Assembly (NCBI GenBank): GCA_903864185.1
Contig: CAIPEX010000009.1
Coordinates: forward strand, 44,281 to 108,280
Direction of reading: 5' to 3'
DNA length: 64,000 nt
Source: an uncultured Chloroflexota bacterium
GTDB lineage: Bacteria; Chloroflexota; Limnocylindria; Limnocylindrales; Limnocylindraceae
Numbering within the stretch: the first letter of the stretch is position 1; every line of letters begins with the position of its first letter. The notes under the pieces were generated by a model that ran no database searches, was not told where the DNA came from, and was given only the letters and a program-made list of their open reading frames with translations. This document shows positions 47,545 through 64,000 of this stretch, piece by piece. Position numbers and translations under genes: made by a program.

Positions 47545-48525
47545 ATGGCTAGGCGTCGCCCAAGTACGCCTGGCATTGACGGCGTGCTCCTCGTAGATAA
47601 ACCATCAGGACCAACGAGCCACGACGTCGTTGCAAAAGTACGTCGCCTCGCCGGACAGCCCCGCATCGGTCACGGGGGCACACTTGACCCGTTTGCAACG
47701 GGGGTTCTCGTCCTCGTCCTCGGTCGTGCAACACGCCTCGCCTCGCTGCATCTCGGCGGGATCAAACGCTACGAGGCGACCTTCTCGTTTGGTGGTCAAA
47801 CGACAACCGACGACCTGGACGGCGAGAGGGTCGGCGAGAGGGTCGGGAGCGCCACGGCAACAGCGACGAGAGATGCGGTTGCAGCCCTTCTGCCGCGCTT
47901 TCGGGGACTACTCGAGCAGGTGCCGCCGAGCCACTCAGCAAAGCGCACAGACGGTGTCCGTGCGTATGAGCGCGCGCGGGCAGGGGAGGTCGTTGAGCTC
48001 GCACCGCGGAGTGTTGAGGTCCGCCACTTTGAGCTGACGAGCTGGGACGACTCCCACCCTGAAGAGCCGCTCATGTCGGCCGTCCTAGAGGTCAGCTCTG
48101 GCACGTACATTCGCGCGATCGCTCGCGACCTTGGTGCAGCAGTTGGATCTGGTGCGCACCTCGTTGCACTTCGCCGTACCGCTGCGGGGGCGTTCGATGT
48201 TGCGCAGGCGCACGCCATGGAAGAGGTTGCACAGGCCGCGCTCGAAGGGCGCCTGCGCGATCTACTCCTGCCGCTCGATGCAGGTCTAACGGCGCTCCCC
48301 GTAGGCGTGATCACTGCCGAGGCTGGAGCGTTGATCACTGATGGTGCGCTGATCCCCGATGAGATGCTTGATGCCGCCGGCCGATCGGTTCTTGAAGGAG
48401 AGCAGCTCCGCCTGACGATTGATGGCAACTTAGTCGCACTTGCACGGCGCACAGCTCGAGGAGCACAGCCAGAACGCGTCTTCACTGTGCCGGTCCTGCC
48501 GCGAAGTGTTGGCGTGCGACGATGA
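47545..48525 (+). CDS. truB: tRNA pseudouridine55 synthase TruB
   Basis: GVLLVDKPSGPTSHDVV and GHGGTLDPFATGVLVL. Confidence 0.92.
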   Translation: MARRRPSTPGIDGVLLVDKPSGPTSHDVVAKVRRLAGQPRIGHGGTLDPFATGVLVLVLGRATRLASLHLGGIKRYEATFSFGGQTTTDDLDGERVGERVGSATATATRDAVAALLPRFRGLLEQVPPSHSAKRTDGVRAYERARAGEVVELAPRSVEVRHFELTSWDDSHPEEPLMSAVLEVSSGTYIRAIARDLGAAVGSGAHLVALRRTAAGAFDVAQAHAMEEVAQAALEGRLRDLLLPLDAGLTALPVGVITAEAGALITDGALIPDEMLDAAGRSVLEGEQLRLTIDGNLVALARRTARGAQPERVFTVPVLPRSVGVRR

Positions 48526-49373
48526 TCCCGCACGTAGCAAGCTGGAGCGCCCTGGAGCATGAACTAGGGGCACGAGTGCCTTCGCGCGGTGTCGTCCTGA
48601 CGCTCGGCGTGTTCGACGGCATGCACCTCGGCCACGTCGCCCTGCTCAAGCGCGCGCATGAGATGGCGCAGGGGTTGGACGCGCTGCGCGTGCATGTTGG
48701 CTTTACGCCACACCCAGACCTTCTCTTGCGCGGGGTGCTCCCACTTCAGCTGCTCGACCCTTCAGAGCTCGTCGCTCGTATGGAACAGGCAGGCGTCGAC
48801 CTCTTCTGCGAACTGCCATTTGACGCTCAGCTGCGCGATACGCTCTGGTCAGACTTTTTGATGCGCCTTACAAGTGTCACGAAGGCGGTCGGCATCACCC
48901 TCTCGCCTGAGAGTGCCTTTGGCGCACGCCGAGAAGGGACAGTCGCGCGCGTGGAGGCATGGGGGAGTGTGCACGGCCTCCAGGTCGCAGGGGTCGACGA
49001 AGTGCTCTGGGGCGGCGCGGCCGTTAGGAGTACCCGTATTCGCGAGGCAGTCGGACAGGGCGACCTTCAGGCAGCTCACGCAATGCTTGGACGCCCCTAT
49101 GCATTGATCGGCACGCGAACTGGTGACGCACTCGACCTCTCGCTCGAGCGGACCGCATGGTGCATCCCGCCAAGTGGGCAGTATGAGGTGGCCCTCCAGC
49201 CCCTTGAGCTCGCACTGCACGATCTTGAGGGCTCACGCGGAGAGGATGCCGTGGTCCGGGTGGATCGTGAGGCACGGATCTGCCACCTGCCCCCTGCAAC
49301 CCCTCGCGCCCACGAGGCTATTGATGGTGAAAAGGTGCGCATAACGCTCCGCGCTAGACGGCTGGGCGCCTGA
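48522..49373 (+). CDS. ribF: bifunctional riboflavin kinase / FMN adenylyltransferase
   Basis: LGVFDGMHLGHVAL (nucleotidyltransferase) plus a C-terminal riboflavin kinase domain. Confidence 0.88.
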   Translation: MIPHVASWSALEHELGARVPSRGVVLTLGVFDGMHLGHVALLKRAHEMAQGLDALRVHVGFTPHPDLLLRGVLPLQLLDPSELVARMEQAGVDLFCELPFDAQLRDTLWSDFLMRLTSVTKAVGITLSPESAFGARREGTVARVEAWGSVHGLQVAGVDEVLWGGAAVRSTRIREAVGQGDLQAAHAMLGRPYALIGTRTGDALDLSLERTAWCIPPSGQYEVALQPLELALHDLEGSRGEDAVVRVDREARICHLPPATPRAHEAIDGEKVRITLRARRLGA

Positions 49374-49452: not shown

Positions 49453-49722
49453 TTGCCACTAGACACGACAGCCGTTGAGCGCATCGTCGCTGAAAACGGT
49501 CGACACGCCAAGGACACAGGCTCTGCAGAGGTGCAAATTGCCCTCCTCACGGCGCGCATCGAAGAGTTGACGCGCCACTTGCAGACCTTTAAGCAGGACA
49601 ATCATTCGCGCCGCGGGCTTCTCAAGCTCGTCGGTCAGCGACGCCGCCTGCTGACCTTCCTTAAGCGTGACAACGCGGCCAGCTACCTCGCCCTCAGCGA
49701 GAAGCTCGGACTTCGCCGCTAA
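49453..49722 (+). CDS. rpsO: 30S ribosomal protein S15
   Basis: ...[50 protein letters not shown] start. Confidence 0.92.
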
Positions 49723-49790: not shown

Positions 49791-52385
49791 ATGGAAATCA
49801 CAACCGTATCCGCCGAGTTTGGCGGGCAGACACTCACGATTGAAACAGGCCGGATGGCCCGCCTTGCTGGCGGTGCAGTAACGGTGCGCTACGGCGACAC
49901 CGTCGTGCTTGGAACGGCGAACCGAAGCGAGCCACGACCTGGTCTCGACTTCTTCCCACTGACGATTGAATTTGAAGAGCGCATGTACGCCGCGGGGAAG
50001 ATCCCAGGCGGCTACATCAAGCGAGAGGGCCGAGCATCAGAAAACGCCACCCTTTCAGCTCGCCTCACTGACCGCCCGATTCGCCCGCTCTTCCCTGAGG
50101 GGTATAAGGACGACGTGCAGGTGGTCATCACCGTCTTGAGCGCGGATCAAGAGAACGATCCAGACATCCTTGGCACGCTCGCTGCATCAGCAGCGCTGAC
50201 GATCTCAGAGATCCCGTTCCTTGGCCCAATCGGCGCAGTGCGCGTCGGCCTAATCGATAGCAAGTTCGTGCTCAACCCGACCTTTGCACAACTTGAGACG
50301 AGTGAACTTGATCTTGTTGTCTCGGGCACGGCCGATGCCATCATGATGGTTGAAGCCGGTGCGAACCTGATCGACGAAGAGAAGATGGCCGATGCAATCG
50401 AGTTTGGCCACGATGCGATCAAGGCGTTGATCTCGCTCCAGAATCAGCTTCGCGAAAAGGTGGGGAAGGCAAAGCGCATTCCATATATCGAGCCAGCCGC
50501 TTCGAGCGTCCTCACGTTTGCTGAGGCACTAGAGGCGAAGGCGAGCTTCGTGGTTGTCGATACAGAGACGACAGGGCTCGATCCCAAGCTCTCTGATCTT
50601 GTTGAAGTTGCAGCCGTTAAGGTTGTCGGAGGCAAGATTACGGACCGCTGGAGCACGCTCGTCAATGCTGGGAACCCGATTGTCGGCTCCCAGATGCACG
50701 GACTAAAGACGGCAGATGTTGCTTCTGGCGTAGCGCCAAAAGCTGCTGCAGAAGAACTGTTGAAATTTGCGAAGGGCTCGATCCTCGTCGGGCATAACCT
50801 CGGATTTGACATCGGCTTCCTGGATGAAGCGCTTGGAAAGGGTCGAACCTTTGGCGTAGAGGAGGGGAGCTACCTTGACACCCTCGTGCTCTACCGCGAG
50901 TCGTACCCTGAGAGCGAATCGTTCAAGCTTGGCGACCTGGCGCGCATCTATGGGGTGGCAACAACGCCGAACCATCGAGCGCTCCCGGATGCTGAGGCTA
51001 CGGCCGAGCTCCTCCTCTTGCTTGCAGCCGACCTGCCGAAGCGTCTGAGCACGCTGAAGTCGGGGATTGAGGATTCCATTCGTGCAGCACGAAGCGGCAA
51101 GGGAGAGCCAAAGGCGCTCCTCGAGTCCGCTCGACGCGCAGCACGCGTCGGTAAGAACCTCTTCTACTGGATGCACAAGAAGACTGCTCGTGGGATGACT
51201 ATGAACGAAGGGATTCGACTCGACGGTCGCAAGGTTGATGAGATTCGACCGATCACCGTTGAGGTTGGCCTGCTGCCACGCGCACACGGCACGGGACTCT
51301 TCACCCGCGGCGACACACAGGCACTCAGTGCTGCGACCCTCGGGCCGTTGGCACAAGGGCAGCGCCTCGACACGATCTCGCCGATCACGGAGAAACGCTA
51401 TATCCATCACTACAACATGCCGCCATATAGCACCGGTGAGAACAAGCCGATGCGCGGCCCTGGCCGACGTGAGATCGGGCACGGTGCGCTCGCTGAGCGT
51501 GCGTTGATCCCAGTACTCCCAACGCCAGAAGAGTTCCCTTACGCGATCCGCGTCGTCTCTGAGTGTGTGACCTCGAACGGCTCCACCTCGATGGCTTCGA
51601 CGTGTGGCTCAAGCCTCGCGCTTCTCGATGCCGGGGTTCCGATTAAGGCATCGGTTGCGGGAGCCGCGATGGGTCTGATGTCAGAGCCAAGCGGCGAGTT
51701 CGTTGTCCTGACAGACATCCTCGGAAAAGAGGATGCCTTCGGCGACATGGACTTCAAGGTGACGGGTACCCGCACCGGTATCACCGCATTGCAGATGGAC
51801 ATTAAGGTGCAGGGGATTACCGGGAAGATCATCCGAACAGGATTGAAAGATGCCCTAACGGCGCGTCTCTCGATCCTCGACAAGATGGATGCCGTGATCT
51901 CAACGGCGCGACCTGAGCTTTCAGACTTCGCACCGCGCATCACGACGATCAAGATCAACCCAGAGAAGATCCGCGACATTATTGGTAAGGGTGGGGCAAC
52001 CATCCGCGGCCTGCAAGATAAATACCAGGTCAATATCAATGTCGAGGACGACGGCACGATCCAGATCGCATCTGCTGACCCAGAGCGTACGAAGGGCGTC
52101 CTGGATGCCATTAACGGCATCACGAAGGAGGTCGAAGTCGGCGCGCTCTACATGGGTAAGGTGACCCGCATCATGGGCTTCGGCTGCTTCGTCGAGATCC
52201 TCCCTGGCAAAGAAGGCCTGGTTCGCATTGGCGAGCTTGCCGACTACCGTGTCAACACCGTCGAGGACGAGGTTGCAGTAGGGGACGAGATCATGGTTGT
52301 GGTGATGGAGGTTGACCGCCAGGGGCGTGTGAACCTGTCACGCCGTGCTGCGATGCAGCGCCATAAGGCGGCTCCGCGCGACTGA
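49791..52385 (+). CDS. pnp: polynucleotide phosphorylase with an inserted DnaQ-like DEDDh 3'-5' exonuclease domain
   Basis: 864 aa. RNase PH domain 1 (aa 1-235), RNase PH domain 2 (aa 476 onward: [13 protein letters not shown]...FTRGDTQAL...), KH ([12 protein letters not shown]) and S1 ([15 protein letters not shown]) all align to PNPase. About 150 extra residues sit in the alpha-helical linker region. Confidence 0.93.
50544..51026 (+). other. DEDDh (DnaQ/epsilon-like) exonuclease domain inserted within pnp (aa ~252-412)
   Basis: Exo [14 protein letters not shown] (D257, E259). Exo [16 protein letters not shown] (D340). Exo III-epsilon [15 protein letters not shown] (H395, D400). Resembles DNA pol III epsilon, PolC exo and RNase T family domains. 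Confidence 0.75.
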
Positions 52386-52419
52386 TCTGCCGGCAGCCTT
52401 GACGAGCAGGGTTCCTACG

Positions 52420-53070
52420 GTGCGAGAGGTAGCGCTCAACGTCCTGGTCAGCGAGATCGCCGCGTGCAGTGCCTGCGCTCTTGCGAGCGGGCGCACAGCA
52501 ACGGTTCCTGGTGAGGGGCTCGCCTCGGCGAAGCTCATGCTTGTCGGTGAGGCTCCGGGTGCCCGGGAAGATCGCGAGGGGAGGCCATTTGCTGGCGCCT
52601 CTGGCACGCTTCTCAATCAACTGCTGGATGGCGCTGGGCTCAGTAGGAACGATGTCTTCATCACGAACACGGTGAAGTGCCGCCCGCCTGATAATCGCGA
52701 CCCCCGCGCAGATGAGATCGCTTCCTGCAGCACATTCCTCTCGCGTCAGATCGAGGCAATCTCGCCCCAGGTCGTCGCAACCCTCGGGCGTCATGCACTT
52801 GCTGTCTTTGCGCCTGGCGCAGTCATTGGCGAGGCACACGGTGCGCCCTACCAAGGAGAACGGCAAAACCTTCACAGCGGGGTGATACTTTTCCCCCTCT
52901 ATCACCCTGCTGCTGCGCTCCACAACGGCAAGCTTCGGCCAACACTTGAGGAAGACATGCGAGCCCTCGCGGCGCTACTCGGGGCTCCTGCTCGTGTGGG
53001 GGCTGGTACGGCTACCCTATACGGAACGCCTCAGGAGGGCGTACGTGCTGAAGCGGGAAGGGGAGGGTGA
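52420..53070 (+). CDS. uracil-DNA glycosylase, family 4 (thermophile-type, Fe-S cluster)
   Basis: ...CSACAL..., GEAPGAREDREGRPFAGASG and ...HPAAAL motifs. Start chosen at GTG 52420; the track ORF opens at 52345 inside the pnp 3' end. Confidence 0.8.
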   Translation: MREVALNVLVSEIAACSACALASGRTATVPGEGLASAKLMLVGEAPGAREDREGRPFAGASGTLLNQLLDGAGLSRNDVFITNTVKCRPPDNRDPRADEIASCSTFLSRQIEAISPQVVATLGRHALAVFAPGAVIGEAHGAPYQGERQNLHSGVILFPLYHPAAALHNGKLRPTLEEDMRALAALLGAPARVGAGTATLYGTPQEGVRAEAGRGG

Positions 53071-53071
53071 A

Positions 53072-54757
53072 GTGAGTCGACGACCGAACCGTGCCCCCGC
53101 AAGCGGTGCGCCGCTGCGATTGATCCCGCTTGGTGGCATGGGCGAAATTGGAAAGAACCTCTACCTCTACGAATACCTCGACACGATCATCCTCGTCGAC
53201 TGCGGGCTCGCCTTCCCGGACGAGACGACGCTTGGCGTCGACATCATAATCCCCGACATCACCTATCTTCGCGAACGAAAGTCTGCTGTGAAGGCAGTTC
53301 TCATCACCCACGGCCACGAAGATCACGTCGGCGCACTCCCGCACATCCTTCCCGAGCTTCCAGGCGTTCCTGTCTACGCGAGCATCCTCGCTCGGGGGCT
53401 GCTCGCAAACAAGCTCAAGGAGTTCAAGGTCTCCGCGAACCCACTCCTGCCGCTCAACGCTGGCGATCGACTCAACATCGGTCCATTCAGCATTGAGCCA
53501 TTCCGGATTGGGCACTCGATTCCAGATGCGATGGGCTTCGCGATTCATACGCCAGTCGGCACCGTTGTGCATACGGGTGACTTCAAGTTCGATCAGACGC
53601 CTGCAGACGGGAAGGGGAGCGACTTTGCCACCCTTGCACGAATCGGTGCAGACGGTGTCATTGCACTCGTCTCCGATAGCACGCGCGCAGAAGTCCCAGG
53701 CTATACGCCAAGCGAGAGGATCGTTGGCGAGGCGTTCCGTGGAATCATGAGTGAGACACAGGGCAGAGTGATCGTTGCCACATTCGCATCGAATATCGCA
53801 CGCATCCAGCAGGTGCTTGATGCCGCAAGCGAACTTGGGCGGCAGGTGGCGGTGGTCGGCCGCTCCATGGAGCAAAACGTGAAGATCGCCCGAGATCTTG
53901 GCTACCTTCGCTTTAAGACTCCTCTCGTCGCAAAAGAAGAGATCGCGAAGCGCAAGAAGCAGCCGCTTGTGATCGCAACAACGGGAGCGCAGGGTGAACC
54001 GATGGCCGGTCTTGCAAAAATGGCGAACGGTGAGCACCGCAACGTTGAGATTCAGGGTGGCGATACGGTTATCGTCTCCGCATCGCCGATCCCGGGAAAC
54101 GAAGAGGCAGTTGGACGAACGATTGACAACCTGTTCAAATCTGGTGCAAATGTGATCTACCACTCCATTGCCCAGGTGCACGTCTCTGGACACGCGTCGC
54201 AAGAAGAGCTCAAGCTCATGCTTGCGCTAACGAAACCGAAATACTTCGTGCCAATGCATGGGGAGATGCGCATGCAGGTCGCGCACGGGCGCCTTGCAAC
54301 GCAAATGGGCGTGGCAGCATCGTCCGTGTTCATCATTGATAACGGCACACCTGTGGAGTTCCTCGCCGATGGCAGTGCGCGACGCGGCAAGCCAGTGGCG
54401 CATGGCTCAGTCTTTGTTGACGGTGCATCCGTAGGGGAGATTAGCGAGATTGTCCTGCGCGATCGCCGAACTCTCGCCGACGACGGAATCGTTGTTGTCA
54501 TCGCCACTGTCGATGCCTCAACGGGACGACCTGTTGGGCGACCTGCCCTCGTCACCCGCGGATTCCTTAATGGCGACGAGGACAACAAGCTAGTCGAGGC
54601 TGCCATCGACATCGCCCTCAAGGCAATTCAACATAAGGGCGACCGAGCCGCGGAGACCGGCTTGATTAAGGCGCAGTTGAGCGAATCTGTGTCTCGCTTC
54701 CTCAGCCGGGAGACGAAGCGACGACCACTCGTGGTCCCGGTAGTCGTCGAGGTCTAG
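53072..54757 (+). CDS. rnj: ribonuclease J
   Basis: Metallo-beta-lactamase motif VLITHGHEDHVGALP, beta-CASP and C-terminal domain. 561 aa. GTG at 53072 lies immediately after the udg stop, with Shine-Dalgarno sequence GGGAGGG. Confidence 0.9.
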   Translation: MSRRPNRAPASGAPLRLIPLGGMGEIGKNLYLYEYLDTIILVDCGLAFPDETTLGVDIIIPDITYLRERKSAVKAVLITHGHEDHVGALPHILPELPGVPVYASILARGLLANKLKEFKVSANPLLPLNAGDRLNIGPFSIEPFRIGHSIPDAMGFAIHTPVGTVVHTGDFKFDQTPADGKGSDFATLARIGADGVIALVSDSTRAEVPGYTPSERIVGEAFRGIMSETQGRVIVATFASNIARIQQVLDAASELGRQVAVVGRSMEQNVKIARDLGYLRFKTPLVAKEEIAKRKKQPLVIATTGAQGEPMAGLAKMANGEHRNVEIQGGDTVIVSASPIPGNEEAVGRTIDNLFKSGANVIYHSIAQVHVSGHASQEELKLMLALTKPKYFVPMHGEMRMQVAHGRLATQMGVAASSVFIIDNGTPVEFLADGSARRGKPVAHGSVFVDGASVGEISEIVLRDRRTLADDGIVVVIATVDASTGRPVGRPALVTRGFLNGDEDNKLVEAAIDIALKAIQHKGDRAAETGLIKAQLSESVSRFLSRETKRRPLVVPVVVEV

Positions 54758-61828: not shown

Positions 61829-62772
61829 CGTCCTCCCTCTACGAGCTCCAACGCGAACGTCAGGAGTGCTGCTGGTGTCGCGGCGTCGTGCGGATCGAGT
61901 GTGGCATTGAGCGTCTCCTTGCGATACCAGGTGCGCTGCCTACGAGCATACGCCCAGGTTCGTGTTGCAGCGGTAGAGCGCGCTTGGGTCTCGTTAAGTG
62001 TGCCGGCTGCTAGTGCCAGCGCCTCTGCGTAGCCGATACCGCTCAGCGCCGGCGTCTCCTGTGGGAGCGACTCGGCAAGGATCTGCGCCTCGCGCATAAG
62101 GCCCGCGGCGAACTGGCGATCGATACGTGCACTGAGCGCAGTGCGATATGCGACGAGGTCCGGGGCATCAAGCAGGACGAAGCGCGTCGCTGCCGACCAC
62201 GGACTCTCCTCTTCAGTGGTTGGATCTCCGCCAAGCATCGTGATCTCGAGGGTGCGGATGAGCCTTCTGCTGCTGGCAGCCGCTACTGCATGCGCGGCAG
62301 CGGGGTGAAGTGCTGCAAGCTGCGCATCGAGTGGCGCACGCCCATCTGACGCAAGCTCCCCTTCGAGCCGTGCGCGTAGTTCCGGATCGGCTGGTCGAGC
62401 ACCGCCACGCAAGAAGCCACGGAGCAGCGCCCGCTGATAGAGGCCTGTGCCGCCAACCACAATGCCGATCCCCTGCGCTACTGACAACTCCCTGCGCGCA
62501 TCTTCGAGCCAGTCGTAGAGCGTAAACGGTGCACGTGCGTCGGCAATATCGATCCCTGCATGGCGACGATGGGCGCGAATCTCGGCTGAAACCTTATCCG
62601 TACCGATATCGAAACCCCGAAACACCTGGCGAGAGTCGGCCGAGAGGATGAGCGATGGGATACCGCGTGCCTCAAGGCTCTCCGACAGGTTGATCGCGGC
62701 TGCACTCTTGCCGACCCCTGTGGGCCCGCCGATAACGAGAAGCGGGATCTCGCTACTACCGGGCGTAGTCAA
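61825..62772 (-). CDS. miaA: tRNA dimethylallyltransferase MiaA
   Basis: LLVIGGPTGVGKSAAAI P-loop and ...IVVGGTGLY. Confidence 0.9.
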   Translation of the reverse strand: MTTPGSSEIPLLVIGGPTGVGKSAAAINLSESLEARGIPSLILSADSRQVFRGFDIGTDKVSAEIRAHRRHAGIDIADARAPFTLYDWLEDARRELSVAQGIGIVVGGTGLYQRALLRGFLRGGARPADPELRARLEGELASDGRAPLDAQLAALHPAAAHAVAAASSRRLIRTLEITMLGGDPTTEEESPWSAATRFVLLDAPDLVAYRTALSARIDRQFAAGLMREAQILAESLPQETPALSGIGYAEALALAAGTLNETQARSTAATRTWAYARRQRTWYRKETLNATLDPHDAATPAALLTFALELVEGGR

Positions 62773-64000
62773 CCGCCCGAGTCTCGCGGATCACCGTCAC
62801 GCGAATCTGGCCAGGATACGAGAGCTGCTCTTCGATGCGCTTCACCACATCGCGCGCAATGGTGCGTGCAGTTGCATCGTCAACCTGCTCTGGTCGGACA
62901 AGGATGCGCACCTCGCGTCCAGCCTGCACCGCATAGACCTTCTCGACCCCTTCGAACGACATGGCGATGTTCTGAAGATCTTCGAGTCGGCGCAGATGGG
63001 ACTCGGCCTGATCGCCTCGTGCGCCTGGCCGTGCCGCACTAATTGCGTCTGCGACCTGCACGATCGGTGCCTCGCGTGCCGTGCACTCCACCTCCTGGTG
63101 GTGGGCAGCAATCGCGTTGACGATCGCCTCTGGCATGCCGTGCCGTCGCGCGAGGTCGGCGCCGATCGCAGCGTGCGTCCCTTCAATCTCGTGGCTCAGC
63201 GCCTTGCCCACGTCATGGAGTAGACCTCCGACCTTTGCAGCGCGGATGTCCATCCCGAGCTCTCCAGCAATTGCACCGGCCACCTGGGCCGTCTCAACTG
63301 AGTGCTGGAGCACGTTCTGTCCGTACGATGTGCGCCACTCGAGGCGACCAAGGATGCGAAGGAGCTCGGTTGGAATGCCCGTGACGCCGACCTCAAGTGC
63401 GGCGCCTTCGCCGTTCTTGAGCGCAGCCTGATCAACCTCTCCCTGCACCTTCTGCACGATCTCTTCAATCCGAACGGGGTGGATGCGTCCATCCTGCATG
63501 AGCCGCTCAATGGTGATGCGGGCAACCTGCCGGCGAACGGGATCGAACGACGAAAGTGTCACCTGCATCGGTGTCTCATCGACGAGGAGCTCCACTCCGG
63601 TTGCGTGCTCAATCGCACGGATGTTGCGCCCTTCACGGCCGATGAGTCGACCCTTCATCTCTTCGCTTGGAAGCTTGATATGCGTAACGGCGTGCTCCGC
63701 ACTGTGGTCTGCGGCGACGCGCTGCATCGCCGTCAGGATCATGTCACGTGCGCGGTCGGCAGCCGACTCTTCCGCGCGGCGCTCTAGCGCCGCCTGGAGA
63801 CGCCCAGCCTCGGATTCTGCATCCACGGTGATCCGCGCAAGCACCTCGGTGCGTGCCGCCTCTGGATCGAGCCCCGCCACCTCTGCGAGTCGGCTGGTCA
63901 CACTGGCCTTAGCAGCAGCAAGCACGGCAGCCTCTTCAAAGGACGCGCGCTCGCGCTCCGCGATGCTCGCTTCGCGCTGCACGAAGAATGTTTCGCGCTC
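62756..64000 (-). CDS. rny: ribonuclease Y (KH + HD domains), N-terminus beyond window edge
   Basis: KH domain (LIGREGRNIRAIE) and HD domain (LLHDVGKA...HH) with the RNase Y C-terminus. The reading frame remains open to the window end. Confidence 0.85.
   Translation of the reverse strand, partial: ERETFFVQREASIAERERASFEEAAVLAAAKASVTSRLAEVAGLDPEAARTEVLARITVDAESEAGRLQAALERRAEESAADRARDMILTAMQRVAADHSAEHAVTHIKLPSEEMKGRLIGREGRNIRAIEHATGVELLVDETPMQVTLSSFDPVRRQVARITIERLMQDGRIHPVRIEEIVQKVQGEVDQAALKNGEGAALEVGVTGIPTELLRILGRLEWRTSYGQNVLQHSVETAQVAGAIAGELGMDIRAAKVGGLLHDVGKALSHEIEGTHAAIGADLARRHGMPEAIVNAIAAHHQEVECTAREAPIVQVADAISAARPGARGDQAESHLRRLEDLQNIAMSFEGVEKVYAVQAGREVRILVRPEQVDDATARTIARDVVKRIEEQLSYPGQIRVTVIRETRAVDYAR

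What the first reader, a model, noticed from the sequence alone, without database searches (positions are those of the whole stretch)
50544..51216. The exonuclease insert replaces most of the PNPase alpha-helical domain but helical flanks remain
In canonical PNPase about 85 aa of all-alpha domain separate PH1 from the RIDGR motif of PH2. Here about 22 aa precede the exonuclease domain, which spans roughly aa 252 to 412. About 65 aa (aa 413-475: ...[58 protein letters not shown]) follow it, up to PH2 at aa 476 (nt 51216).

That layout looks like a domain insertion into a loop of the helical domain, not an end-to-end gene fusion. Such an origin would be evolutionarily interesting. It may also disrupt the surface that in other bacteria docks RNase E or degradosome partners.
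Basis: inference. Interest (0 to 1): 0.55.

Follow-up and report, generated by a model that had tools for sequence, protein, structure and literature searches.

The report
PNPase with built-in DEDDh exonuclease
The RNA-degrading enzyme PNPase of a whole class of freshwater and soil Chloroflexota (Limnocylindria) carries a second, apparently active exonuclease domain inserted into its helical linker domain, which is otherwise full length; no paper I could find describes this.

Summary

"Domain insertion, not end-to-end fusion" is supported. "Replaces most of the helical domain" is not. The flanks (26 + 62 aa = 88 aa) add up to a full-length helical domain. Excising aa 252-412 in silico gives a 703-aa protein that aligns in one stretch, with canonical spacing, to solved PNPases. 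The exonuclease sits after the first helix of the helical domain. Its last helix runs on as one predicted 39-residue helix into the next helical-domain helix.

The architecture is class-wide: 80 species-level Limnocylindria genomes were fetched and 120 full-length proteins listed. All five DEDDh residues and the phosphorolytic site are conserved. The exonuclease clade is monophyletic and no donor was found.

The function is inferred: a ring with three phosphorolytic and three hydrolytic 3'-exonuclease sites. It most likely clears RNA 3' ends or short oligonucleotides. A DNA-end role is the main rival. The RNase E docking idea has no support.

The parts
49453..49722 (+). rpsO (ribosomal protein S15), directly upstream of pnp
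   Evidence: ORF. The rpsO-pnp order is kept in nearly all 80 related loci.
49791..52385 (+). pnp: an 864-aa polynucleotide phosphorylase with a nested exonuclease domain
   Evidence: TIGR03591 919 bits against a cutoff of 525. Pfam domains. Foldseek matches to PNPase structures at E 1e-44.
49791..50465 (+). PH1 (first RNase PH-like domain, aa 1-225), including its long terminal helix 196-224
   Evidence: RNase_PH and RNase_PH_C hits. Aligns to E. coli 10-242. Helix.
50466..50543 (+). N-terminal piece of the helical domain (aa 226-251): a loop plus helix 1 (aa 238-248, nt 50502-50534)
   Evidence: Model. Aligns with the start of the canonical helical domain once the exonuclease is excised.
50544..51026 (+). 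Inserted DEDDh (DnaQ-fold) 3'-5' exonuclease domain, aa 252-412
50559..50567 (+). Exo I motif D257-x-E259 (DTETTG)
   Evidence: Invariant in 60 of 60 full-length relatives and in stand-alone exonucleases.
50808..50810 (+). Exo II aspartate D340 (VGHNLGFD)
   Evidence: Invariant in 60 of 60.
50973..50990 (+). Exo III-epsilon motif H395-x4-D400 (HRALPD)
   Evidence: Invariant in 60 of 60. This motif defines the DEDDh subclass.
50979..51095 (+). Continuous predicted helix aa 397-435. It joins the last exonuclease helix to helical-domain helix 2.
   Evidence: Models, with local pLDDT about 94-98.
51027..51212 (+). C-terminal piece of the helical domain (aa 413-474): helices 413-435, 440-451 and 455-473
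   Evidence: Model. phmmer aligns query 417-862 to Anabaena PNPase 8zaw 278-723. PF03726 positions 48-81 match this stretch in relatives, and positions 55-81 match in the window.
51213..51905 (+). PH2 (catalytic RNase PH-like domain, aa 475-705). It contains IRLDGR (475-480), [16 protein letters not shown], and D648/D654/K656, which correspond to E. coli D486/D492/K494.
51906..52355 (+). KH (aa about 706-775) and S1 (aa about 776-855) RNA-binding domains
   Evidence: Pfam KH_1 and S1 hits.

Best explanation
This is the housekeeping PNPase of a Candidatus Limnocylindrus-like bacterium (Chloroflexota, class Limnocylindria).

What is shown:
- A complete DEDDh (DnaQ-fold) 3'-5' exonuclease domain of about 161 aa was inserted in frame after the first helix of the all-alpha helical domain, at roughly E. 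coli residue 252/253.
- The helical domain itself remains full length (88 aa) and is split 26 + 62 aa.
- The N-terminal helix leads straight into exonuclease strand beta-1. The last exonuclease helix continues without a break into the next helical-domain helix.
- Both catalytic centres are intact and conserved across the clade: DEDDh (D257, E259, D340, H395, D400) and the phosphorolytic PH2 site (D648, D654, K656, RR, SNGSTS).

What is inferred:
- The canonical PNPase trimer would carry three phosphorolytic sites in the central channel and three hydrolytic DEDDh sites.
- The hydrolytic sites would lie on the ring face opposite KH/S1. There the helical domain borders a side pore to the active site.
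- The hydrolytic module most likely works on RNA in series or in parallel with phosphorolysis. It could trim free 3' ends, or digest the short limit oligonucleotides that PNPase releases (the job done in trans by the DEDDh enzymes Orn and REXO2 elsewhere). It could also provide phosphate-independent decay.

The event looks single and ancient, followed by vertical co-inheritance. The donor is unresolved.
For: Architecture and fold:
- Domain hits and PNPase equivalog score.
- Domain model with pLDDT 90.3 and pTM 0.83.

Clean insertion:
- The excised 703-aa chimera aligns in one stretch with canonical spacing to 26 solved PNPase sequences.
- PF03726 remnant in the C-flank.
- The linker plus insert is 246-249 aa in all 60 full-length relatives.

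Activity-competent:
- DEDDh residues are conserved in 60 of 60.
- PH2 motifs are conserved, mapped to E. coli D486/D492/K494.
- Exonuclease dN/dS is about 0.34, against 0.18-0.21 for the PH cores and 0.5-0.6 for the flanks. All are below 1 (dS is likely saturated).

Housekeeping copy, lineage-wide:
- truB-ribF-rpsO-pnp-udg-rnj synteny in the 80 loci.
- The 80 best species-representative genomes all carry Chloroflexota or Limnocylindr* labels, apart from two labelled only 'bacterium' and one odd label.
- The 120 best full-length proteins are about 858-876 aa, apart from one 729-aa entry covering 84% of the query.

Single origin:
- The embedded exonucleases are monophyletic in an NJ tree.
- Exonuclease and core distances correlate (Mantel r 0.71, 0 of 999 permutations).
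- An exhaustive representative search shows one 50%-identity cluster plus fragments in its best 150 rows.

Position and role of the helical domain: PMC2723993.

PNPase leaves a short oligonucleotide product, and DEDDh nanoRNases act downstream of it: abstracts of PMC11572968 and PMC7261184, and PMC9779919.
Against: - No biochemical data exist. The substrate (RNA or DNA, long or short) cannot be read from the sequence.
- The closest sequence and structure relatives are DNA-acting or dual-specificity exonucleases (PolC-exo, epsilon, DinG-exo, ExoX). Orn ranks lower (7wik, Foldseek rank 37), and no Orn model is among the 25 NCBIfam rows shown.
- Orn works as a homodimer with a 5'-phosphate cap, and nothing suggests that here.
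- I had no model coordinates and no trimer model. The placement next to the side pore is extrapolated from E. coli structures.
- I could not check whether these genomes lack orn, nrnA/B/C or RNase R.
- The full-length model is poor outside aa 100-480 (mean pLDDT 65).
Confidence: 0.55

Rival explanations
1. DNA-end processing. The inserted DEDDh domain is a 3'-5' exodeoxyribonuclease. It would equip PNPase for a role in DNA repair or recombination (trimming ssDNA 3' ends) rather than in RNA decay.
For: - The best sequence and fold matches are DNA-acting exonucleases: PolC-exo, epsilon, DinG-exo and ExoX.
- A UDG-superfamily gene follows pnp immediately. Its listed start overlaps the pnp end, and this order is conserved in the class.
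- From my own knowledge, not checked here: B. subtilis and mycobacterial PNPases have been implicated in DNA repair and act on ssDNA with Mn2+.
Against: - The host protein is an RNA enzyme with KH and S1 domains.
- The same conserved block also holds rpsO and RNase J, so gene order may simply be inherited.
Confidence: 0.2
2. The exonuclease replaced most of the helical domain, and the flanks are short helical remnants of a largely deleted domain.
For: - Pfam does not call PF03726 on the window protein at default thresholds.
- phmmer of the intact protein leaves about 40-55 residues of reference helical domain unaligned.
Against: - The flanks total 88 aa, the canonical length.
- The excised chimera aligns end to end with canonical spacing.
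- Four helices are predicted with pLDDT above 90.
- PF03726 positions 48-81 are recovered in relatives above the gathering score.
Confidence: 0.05
3. A non-catalytic module. The DnaQ-fold domain is kept as a 3'-end or nucleotide-binding, regulatory or scaffolding element rather than as a working nuclease.
For: - Its dN/dS is higher than that of the PH cores.
Against: All five catalytic residues, and the surrounding Exo I, II and III motifs, are invariant across 60 sequences that fall to 50% pairwise identity in this domain. Pseudo-nucleases normally lose these residues.
Confidence: 0.1
4. An artefact: a chimeric assembly or a read-through of two adjacent genes (end-to-end fusion).
For: Many database relatives are fragments of 445 aa or less.
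Against: - Those fragments are frameshifted pieces of the same gene.
- At least 56 independently assembled loci carry an uninterrupted ORF of about 860 aa, and 119 of the 120 best database proteins are about 858-876 aa.
- PNPase sequence lies on both sides of the insert, in frame.
Confidence: 0.01

Closest known systems
Canonical bacterial PNPase (E. coli 3GCM/7OGK, C. crescentus 4AM3, S. aureus 5YJJ, Anabaena 8ZAW)
   Same: PH1, helical domain, PH2, KH and S1 in the same order. The phosphorolytic site residues are conserved. The gene sits in the rpsO-pnp locus. After excising the insert, length and spacing are canonical (703 aa).
   Different: A 161-aa DEDDh exonuclease is nested after helix 1 of the helical domain. 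I found no solved or described PNPase with an extra catalytic domain there.
PolC-type DNA polymerase III (exonuclease nested in the PHP domain)
   Different: The host is a DNA polymerase and the role is proofreading. Identity is only about 30-45%. There is no evidence that PolC was the donor.
DinG with N-terminal DEDDh exonuclease, and exonuclease-GIY-YIG proteins (PRK07883 family)
   Same: These give the best NCBIfam scores (PRK07883 models 120-124 bits; DinG 105-109 bits). The top Foldseek hit is 8zef, S. aureus DinG.
   Different: In those proteins the exonuclease is a terminal fusion to a helicase or a GIY-YIG nuclease, not a nested insertion. All scores are far below the equivalog cutoffs.
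Eukaryotic exosome (RNase PH-like ring plus the DEDD-family Rrp6)
   Same: A PH-like ring is combined with a hydrolytic DEDD-superfamily 3'-5' exonuclease. This analogy rests on established knowledge.
   Different: There the PH ring is catalytically inert, Rrp6 is a separate DEDDy subunit, and it binds on the cap side. Here the ring keeps its phosphorolytic site, the exonuclease is DEDDh, it is covalently nested, and it is inferred to sit on the opposite face.
Oligoribonuclease Orn / REXO2 (DEDDh nanoRNases)
   Same: DEDDh fold (7wik and 6n6i among the hits). They act downstream of PNPase on its short products (abstract of PMC7261184; PMC9779919).
   Different: They are stand-alone homodimers with a 5'-phosphate cap. 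The insert is not closest to Orn by sequence or structure. The functional analogy is a hypothesis only.

Membership tests
Polynucleotide phosphorylase (TIGR03591 / PRK11824) | Whole-protein score above the curated equivalog cutoff | tested here: met
   919.3 bits against a cutoff of 525 (TIGR03591), and 912.7 against 471 (NF008805), matched in two stretches.
Polynucleotide phosphorylase (TIGR03591 / PRK11824) | Two RNase PH-like domains followed by KH and S1 | tested here: met
   Pfam RNase_PH (two stretches), RNase_PH_C, KH_1 and S1. Foldseek E 1e-44 to PNPase structures.
Polynucleotide phosphorylase (TIGR03591 / PRK11824) | Phosphorolytic active site in PH2 (E. coli D486, D492, K494; the RR and SxGSxS phosphate-binding motifs) | tested here: met
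   D648, D654 and K656, RREIGHG and SNGSTSMAS are present and conserved. 59 of 60 relatives keep the metal-binding motif; the one exception has a disrupted stretch there.
Polynucleotide phosphorylase (TIGR03591 / PRK11824) | All-alpha helical domain of about 85 aa between PH1 and PH2 | tested here: met
   Present but split, 26 + 62 = 88 aa, with four predicted helices. Spacing is canonical after excision. PF03726 matches only partly: 16 bits in the window, and 25.5 bits against a cutoff of 24.6 in P0176.
Polynucleotide phosphorylase (TIGR03591 / PRK11824) | Homotrimeric ring; phosphorolysis and NDP polymerisation activity | not testable with these tools
   Needs biochemistry or a multimer model.
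DEDDh / DnaQ-like 3'-5' exonuclease superfamily (PF00929) | Profile match above the gathering score | tested here: met
   88.3 bits against 24, E 1.1e-24, covering profile positions 1-164 of 164.
DEDDh / DnaQ-like 3'-5' exonuclease superfamily (PF00929) | Exo I (DxE), Exo II (D) and Exo III-epsilon (Hx4D) catalytic residues | tested here: met
   D257, E259, D340, H395 and D400 are invariant in 60 of 60 relatives and in aligned stand-alone exonucleases.
DEDDh / DnaQ-like 3'-5' exonuclease superfamily (PF00929) | RNase H-like alpha/beta DnaQ fold | tested here: met
DEDDh / DnaQ-like 3'-5' exonuclease superfamily (PF00929) | Divalent-metal-dependent hydrolytic 3'-5' exonuclease activity | not testable with these tools
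   Needs an enzyme assay.
Oligoribonuclease (Orn) / nanoRNase | Sequence membership in the Orn family | tested here: not met
   No Orn model appears among the 25 NCBIfam rows shown for either query (62 and 30 families hit). The best models are PRK07883, PolC and DinG. The Orn structure 7wik is only Foldseek rank 37.
Oligoribonuclease (Orn) / nanoRNase | Homodimer with a 5'-phosphate cap selective for very short RNAs | not testable with these tools
   No coordinates or multimer model were available.
PolC-type DNA polymerase III / epsilon / DinG equivalogs | Score above the curated equivalog cutoffs | tested here: not met
   PolC 112-115 bits against 873; DinG 105-109 against 789; dnaQ_proteo 69-73 against 223. 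Only the exonuclease domain is shared.

The most novel reading that the evidence does not exclude
Limnocylindria PNPase is a covalently bifunctional 3'-exonuclease machine, a bacterial counterpart of the 'PH ring plus DEDD nuclease' logic of the eukaryotic exosome. The DEDDh sites sit at the side pore of the helical domain. They hydrolyse the limit oligoribonucleotides (or stalled or structured 3' ends) handed over from the phosphorolytic site. This would replace a separate nanoRNase or hydrolytic exoribonuclease and make RNA decay less dependent on phosphate in these oligotrophic bacteria.
Probability: 0.25. Interest if true: 0.75.

Novelty: new variant of a known kind. Interest (0 to 1): 0.55.

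Why it matters
[quoted passage not shown] Here a whole, environmentally abundant class of Chloroflexota has placed a second, apparently active exonuclease exactly there.

This gives a natural experiment on two questions. One is what the helical domain and its side pore do. The other is how phosphorolytic and hydrolytic 3'-5' decay can be coupled in one particle.

It is also a clean example of evolution by nested domain insertion. The helix continuity at the C-terminal junction explains how the host fold tolerated it.

On the practical side, automatic annotation gives these proteins inconsistent names: 'DNA polymerase III epsilon subunit family exonuclease' or 'polyribonucleotide nucleotidyltransferase'.

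Tried and rejected
1. The homolog search with the insert alone returned only proteins of 445 aa or less. Inspection showed frameshifted pnp fragments, not split genes. The full-length search was needed.

2. Donor search:
   - The exhaustive representative search, Pfam on the nearest hits, cluster look-up and NJ tree gave no clear donor.
   - The only apparent stand-alone sister, P0253, shares the idiosyncratic loop and the start of the C-flank with the PNPase insert. It sits on a 943-nt contig, so I judged it to be another PNPase fragment.
   - The nearest non-PNPase exonucleases reach at most about 47% identity. Those checked are heterogeneous: stand-alone, PolC, and exonuclease-GIY-YIG.

3. 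No second DEDDh paralog was found in the window or in the 80 loci.

4. The afdb50 fold library was unavailable, so I could not see whether AlphaFold DB holds this architecture.

5. dN/dS uses NG86 on sequences whose synonymous sites are probably saturated. Only the ranking of regions is trustworthy.

6. Full-length AF2 model: mean pLDDT 65, poor in parts of PH1 and PH2 and in S1 because the alignment is shallow. I used it only for aa 196-480. A separate domain model was built for the fold searches.

7. Six literature searches and a look inside PMC13212565 found no description of this architecture.

8. GC content dips to about 0.55-0.57 over 50150-50900. A similar dip occurs at 51800-52100, so there is no compositional sign of recent acquisition.

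Full report
**1. The observation**

The finding spans nt 50544-51216. These are codons 252-476 of a single 864-codon ORF on the + strand (49791-52385). Pfam finds, in order:
- RNase_PH and RNase_PH_C (PH1, to about aa 209);
- RNase_T/PF00929 at aa 254-408 (E 1.1e-24, 88 bits against a cutoff of 24, full profile coverage);
- RNase_PH (PH2, 484-617);
- KH and S1.

NCBIfam scores the protein at 919 bits on the PNPase equivalog TIGR03591 (cutoff 525), matched in two stretches. The middle segment scores 105-124 bits on DEDD, PolC-exo and DinG-exo models. The quoted flank peptide is present.

**2. It is a real gene and the housekeeping copy**

The gene lies in the block truB-ribF-rpsO-pnp-udg-rnj. 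The wider window is ordinary chromosome. It holds ileS, lspA, gmk, def, plsX, ffh, rpsB, tsf, frr, ispG, nusA, infB, ftsK and hflX, plus an RNase Y-like gene at the far end.

Of these, 80 were fetched:
- All encode the insert at 55-95% identity.
- All are MAGs. Nearly all are labelled Chloroflexota, Candidatus Limnocylindria, Limnocylindrales, Limnocylindrus or Aquidulcis. Two are labelled only 'bacterium', and one carries an odd label.
- I did not inspect the unfetched stretches, so 520 is not a count of the architecture.

The gene order is conserved across the fetched loci. In the protein database, 119 of the 120 best full-length hits are about 858-876 aa, and all carry PF00929 plus the PNPase domains. 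Identities run from 70 to 97%. Some are named 'polyribonucleotide nucleotidyltransferase' and others 'DNA polymerase III epsilon subunit family exonuclease'. At least 56 loci carry an uninterrupted ORF of about 860 aa. An assembly artefact or gene read-through is excluded. The many short hits are frameshifted fragments.

**3. The fold**

A domain model of aa 196-487 is confident (mean pLDDT 90.3, pTM 0.83).
- Its core has the beta1-beta2-beta3-alpha-beta4-alpha-beta5-alpha-alpha order of DnaQ-like exonucleases.
- Foldseek agrees.

The full-length model is mediocre overall (pLDDT 65) but matches PNPase structures at E 1e-44.

**4. Insertion, not replacement**

I tested this directly by removing aa 252-412.
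- The result is a 703-aa protein, the usual PNPase size.
- Its first 518 residues align to all 26 listed PNPase chain sequences from the PDB (bacterial and human) in one uninterrupted stretch with canonical spacing.
- Examples: chimera 5-516 to C. crescentus 11-522, 9-516 to E. coli 10-515, 7-516 to S. aureus 21-531, and 5-516 to 9qh3 (described as P. aeruginosa PNPase) 5-516.

The intact protein gives consistent offsets. Query 9-240 aligns to E. coli 10-242, and query 458-860 to E. coli 297-698. Query 417-862 aligns to Anabaena 278-723. The insertion point therefore corresponds to about E. coli residue 252/253.

The model predicts four flank helices:
- 238-248, before the exonuclease;
- 413-435, 440-451 and 455-473, after it.

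Residues 397-435 form one continuous 39-residue helix running from the Exo III helix into the helical domain. The end of Pfam PF03726 is still detectable in the C-flank. It scores 25.5 bits against a cutoff of 24.6 in P0176, and 16 bits in the window. The linker plus insert is 246-249 aa in all 60 full-length relatives.

So the helical domain is split, not replaced. The 'domain insertion' reading is right and the 'replaces most' reading is wrong.

**5. Both active sites look functional**

D257, E259, D340, H395 and D400 (DEDDh) are invariant in 60 of 60 sequences. Pairwise identity among these falls to 50% within the exonuclease. The phosphorolytic site is also conserved. Window D648, D654 and K656 correspond to the E. 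coli Mn2+ ligands D486, D492 and K494.

Region-wise dN/dS is below 1 everywhere:

| Region | dN/dS |
|---|---|
| PH1 | 0.18 |
| N-flank | 0.62 |
| Exonuclease | 0.34 |
| C-flank | 0.49 |
| PH2 | 0.21 |
| KH/S1 | 0.19 |

Synonymous sites are probably saturated, so only the ranking of regions is meaningful.

**6. Origin**

The evidence points to one old insertion inherited vertically:
- In an exhaustive HMMER search of 1.84 billion representatives, the best 150 rows show the embedded exonuclease as one 50%-identity cluster (P0136, 274 bits) plus fragments. Scores then drop to about 90-140 bits.
- The non-PNPase hits I checked are heterogeneous: stand-alone exonucleases, PolC, and exonuclease-GIY-YIG proteins.
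- In an NJ tree the PNPase-embedded exonucleases are monophyletic.
- The one apparent stand-alone sister (P0253) shares the insert's idiosyncratic loop and the start of the C-flank. It is probably another pnp fragment.
- Exonuclease and core distances are correlated (Mantel r 0.71, 0 of 999 permutations).
- There is no compositional anomaly specific to the insert.

The donor is unresolved. PolC shows that the same fold can live as a nested insertion. In P0261, RNase_T 438-592 lies inside PHP 350-705.

**7. How it probably works (inference)**

In E. coli PNPase the helical domain lies on the ring face opposite S1/KH. It is dynamic, and it forms part of a side pore giving access to the active site. 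That pore is thought to serve NDP and phosphate traffic rather than RNA entry (PMC2723993).

By homology, the Limnocylindria trimer would display three DEDDh domains on that face. PNPase leaves a short oligonucleotide product (abstract of PMC11572968). Such products are cleared elsewhere by separate DEDDh enzymes, Orn and REXO2 (abstract of PMC7261184; PMC9779919).

I therefore favour a hydrolytic partner activity on RNA: trimming free 3' ends, clearing limit oligonucleotides, or phosphate-independent decay. I am about 90% sure of the anatomy and evolution. I give about 35-40% to this functional reading.

The main rival is a DNA-end role. The closest relatives are DNA exonucleases, and a UDG gene is a conserved neighbour. 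However, DEDDh specificity cannot be read from such similarity. The insert is not an Orn family member.

**8. The RNase E idea**

E. coli RNase E binds a beta-sheet edge of an RNase PH-like subdomain (residues 327-331), not the helical domain. The Caulobacter GWW pocket is on the face opposite S1/KH. This window encodes RNase J and an RNase Y-like protein, which is a Gram-positive-type set. No RNase E was seen among the ORFs I scanned. The speculation has no support here, although steric effects on partners at that face remain possible.

**9. Novelty**

Six full-text searches and one targeted read found no description of a PNPase with a nested exonuclease. The proteins are in public databases under inconsistent automatic names. 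I rate this a new variant of a known kind: canonical PNPase plus a canonical DEDDh fold, in an undescribed nested arrangement that is fixed across a bacterial class.

**10. Limits**

- No coordinates, PAE or multimer model were available, so the geometry is extrapolated.
- Distribution outside the best 80 loci and 120 proteins was not enumerated.
- The nanoRNase gene census could not be run.
- There is no biochemistry.

Noticed in passing
window 52345-53070 (+): A UDG-superfamily ORF (PF03167, 125 bits) follows pnp. As listed, it overlaps the last 41 nt of pnp, though the true start may be further downstream. The pnp-udg-rnj order is kept in most related Limnocylindria loci.
   Followed up: partly
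window 52946-54757 (+) and 62756-63982 (-): RNase J lies two genes after pnp (directly after udg). An RNase Y-like gene (RNase_Y_N + KH + HD) lies close to the window end. This is a Gram-positive-type RNA-decay set. No RNase E was seen among the ORFs scanned.
   Followed up: partly
proteins P0001-P0094, e.g. P0024, P0042, P0081: Many database relatives of the insert are pieces of pnp of 445 aa or less, with out-of-frame tails. Many come from long contigs (up to about 1 Mb). They look like indel or frameshift errors in assemblies, not genuinely split genes.
   Followed up: partly
L078 and L079: Two contigs of the same MAG (CAYMTJ01) carry 100% identical pnp genes. This is probably a duplicated contig in the bin rather than a paralog.
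   Followed up: yes
window 48522-49373 (+): The RibF-like ORF (283 aa) shows only the FAD synthetase domain at E <= 1e-4. No riboflavin-kinase domain hit was seen in its C-terminal third.
   Followed up: no
proteins P0006, P0008, P0253: A divergent subgroup of insert-bearing PNPases has about 43-50% identity in the insert region. In P0006 and P0008 the C-flank is about 3 aa longer. It marks deeper diversity of the architecture than the 80 fetched loci show.
   Followed up: partly
window 50150-50900 and 51800-52100: GC content dips to about 0.55-0.57 against about 0.60-0.65 around it. The dips are not confined to the insert, so they do not mark a recent acquisition.
   Followed up: partly
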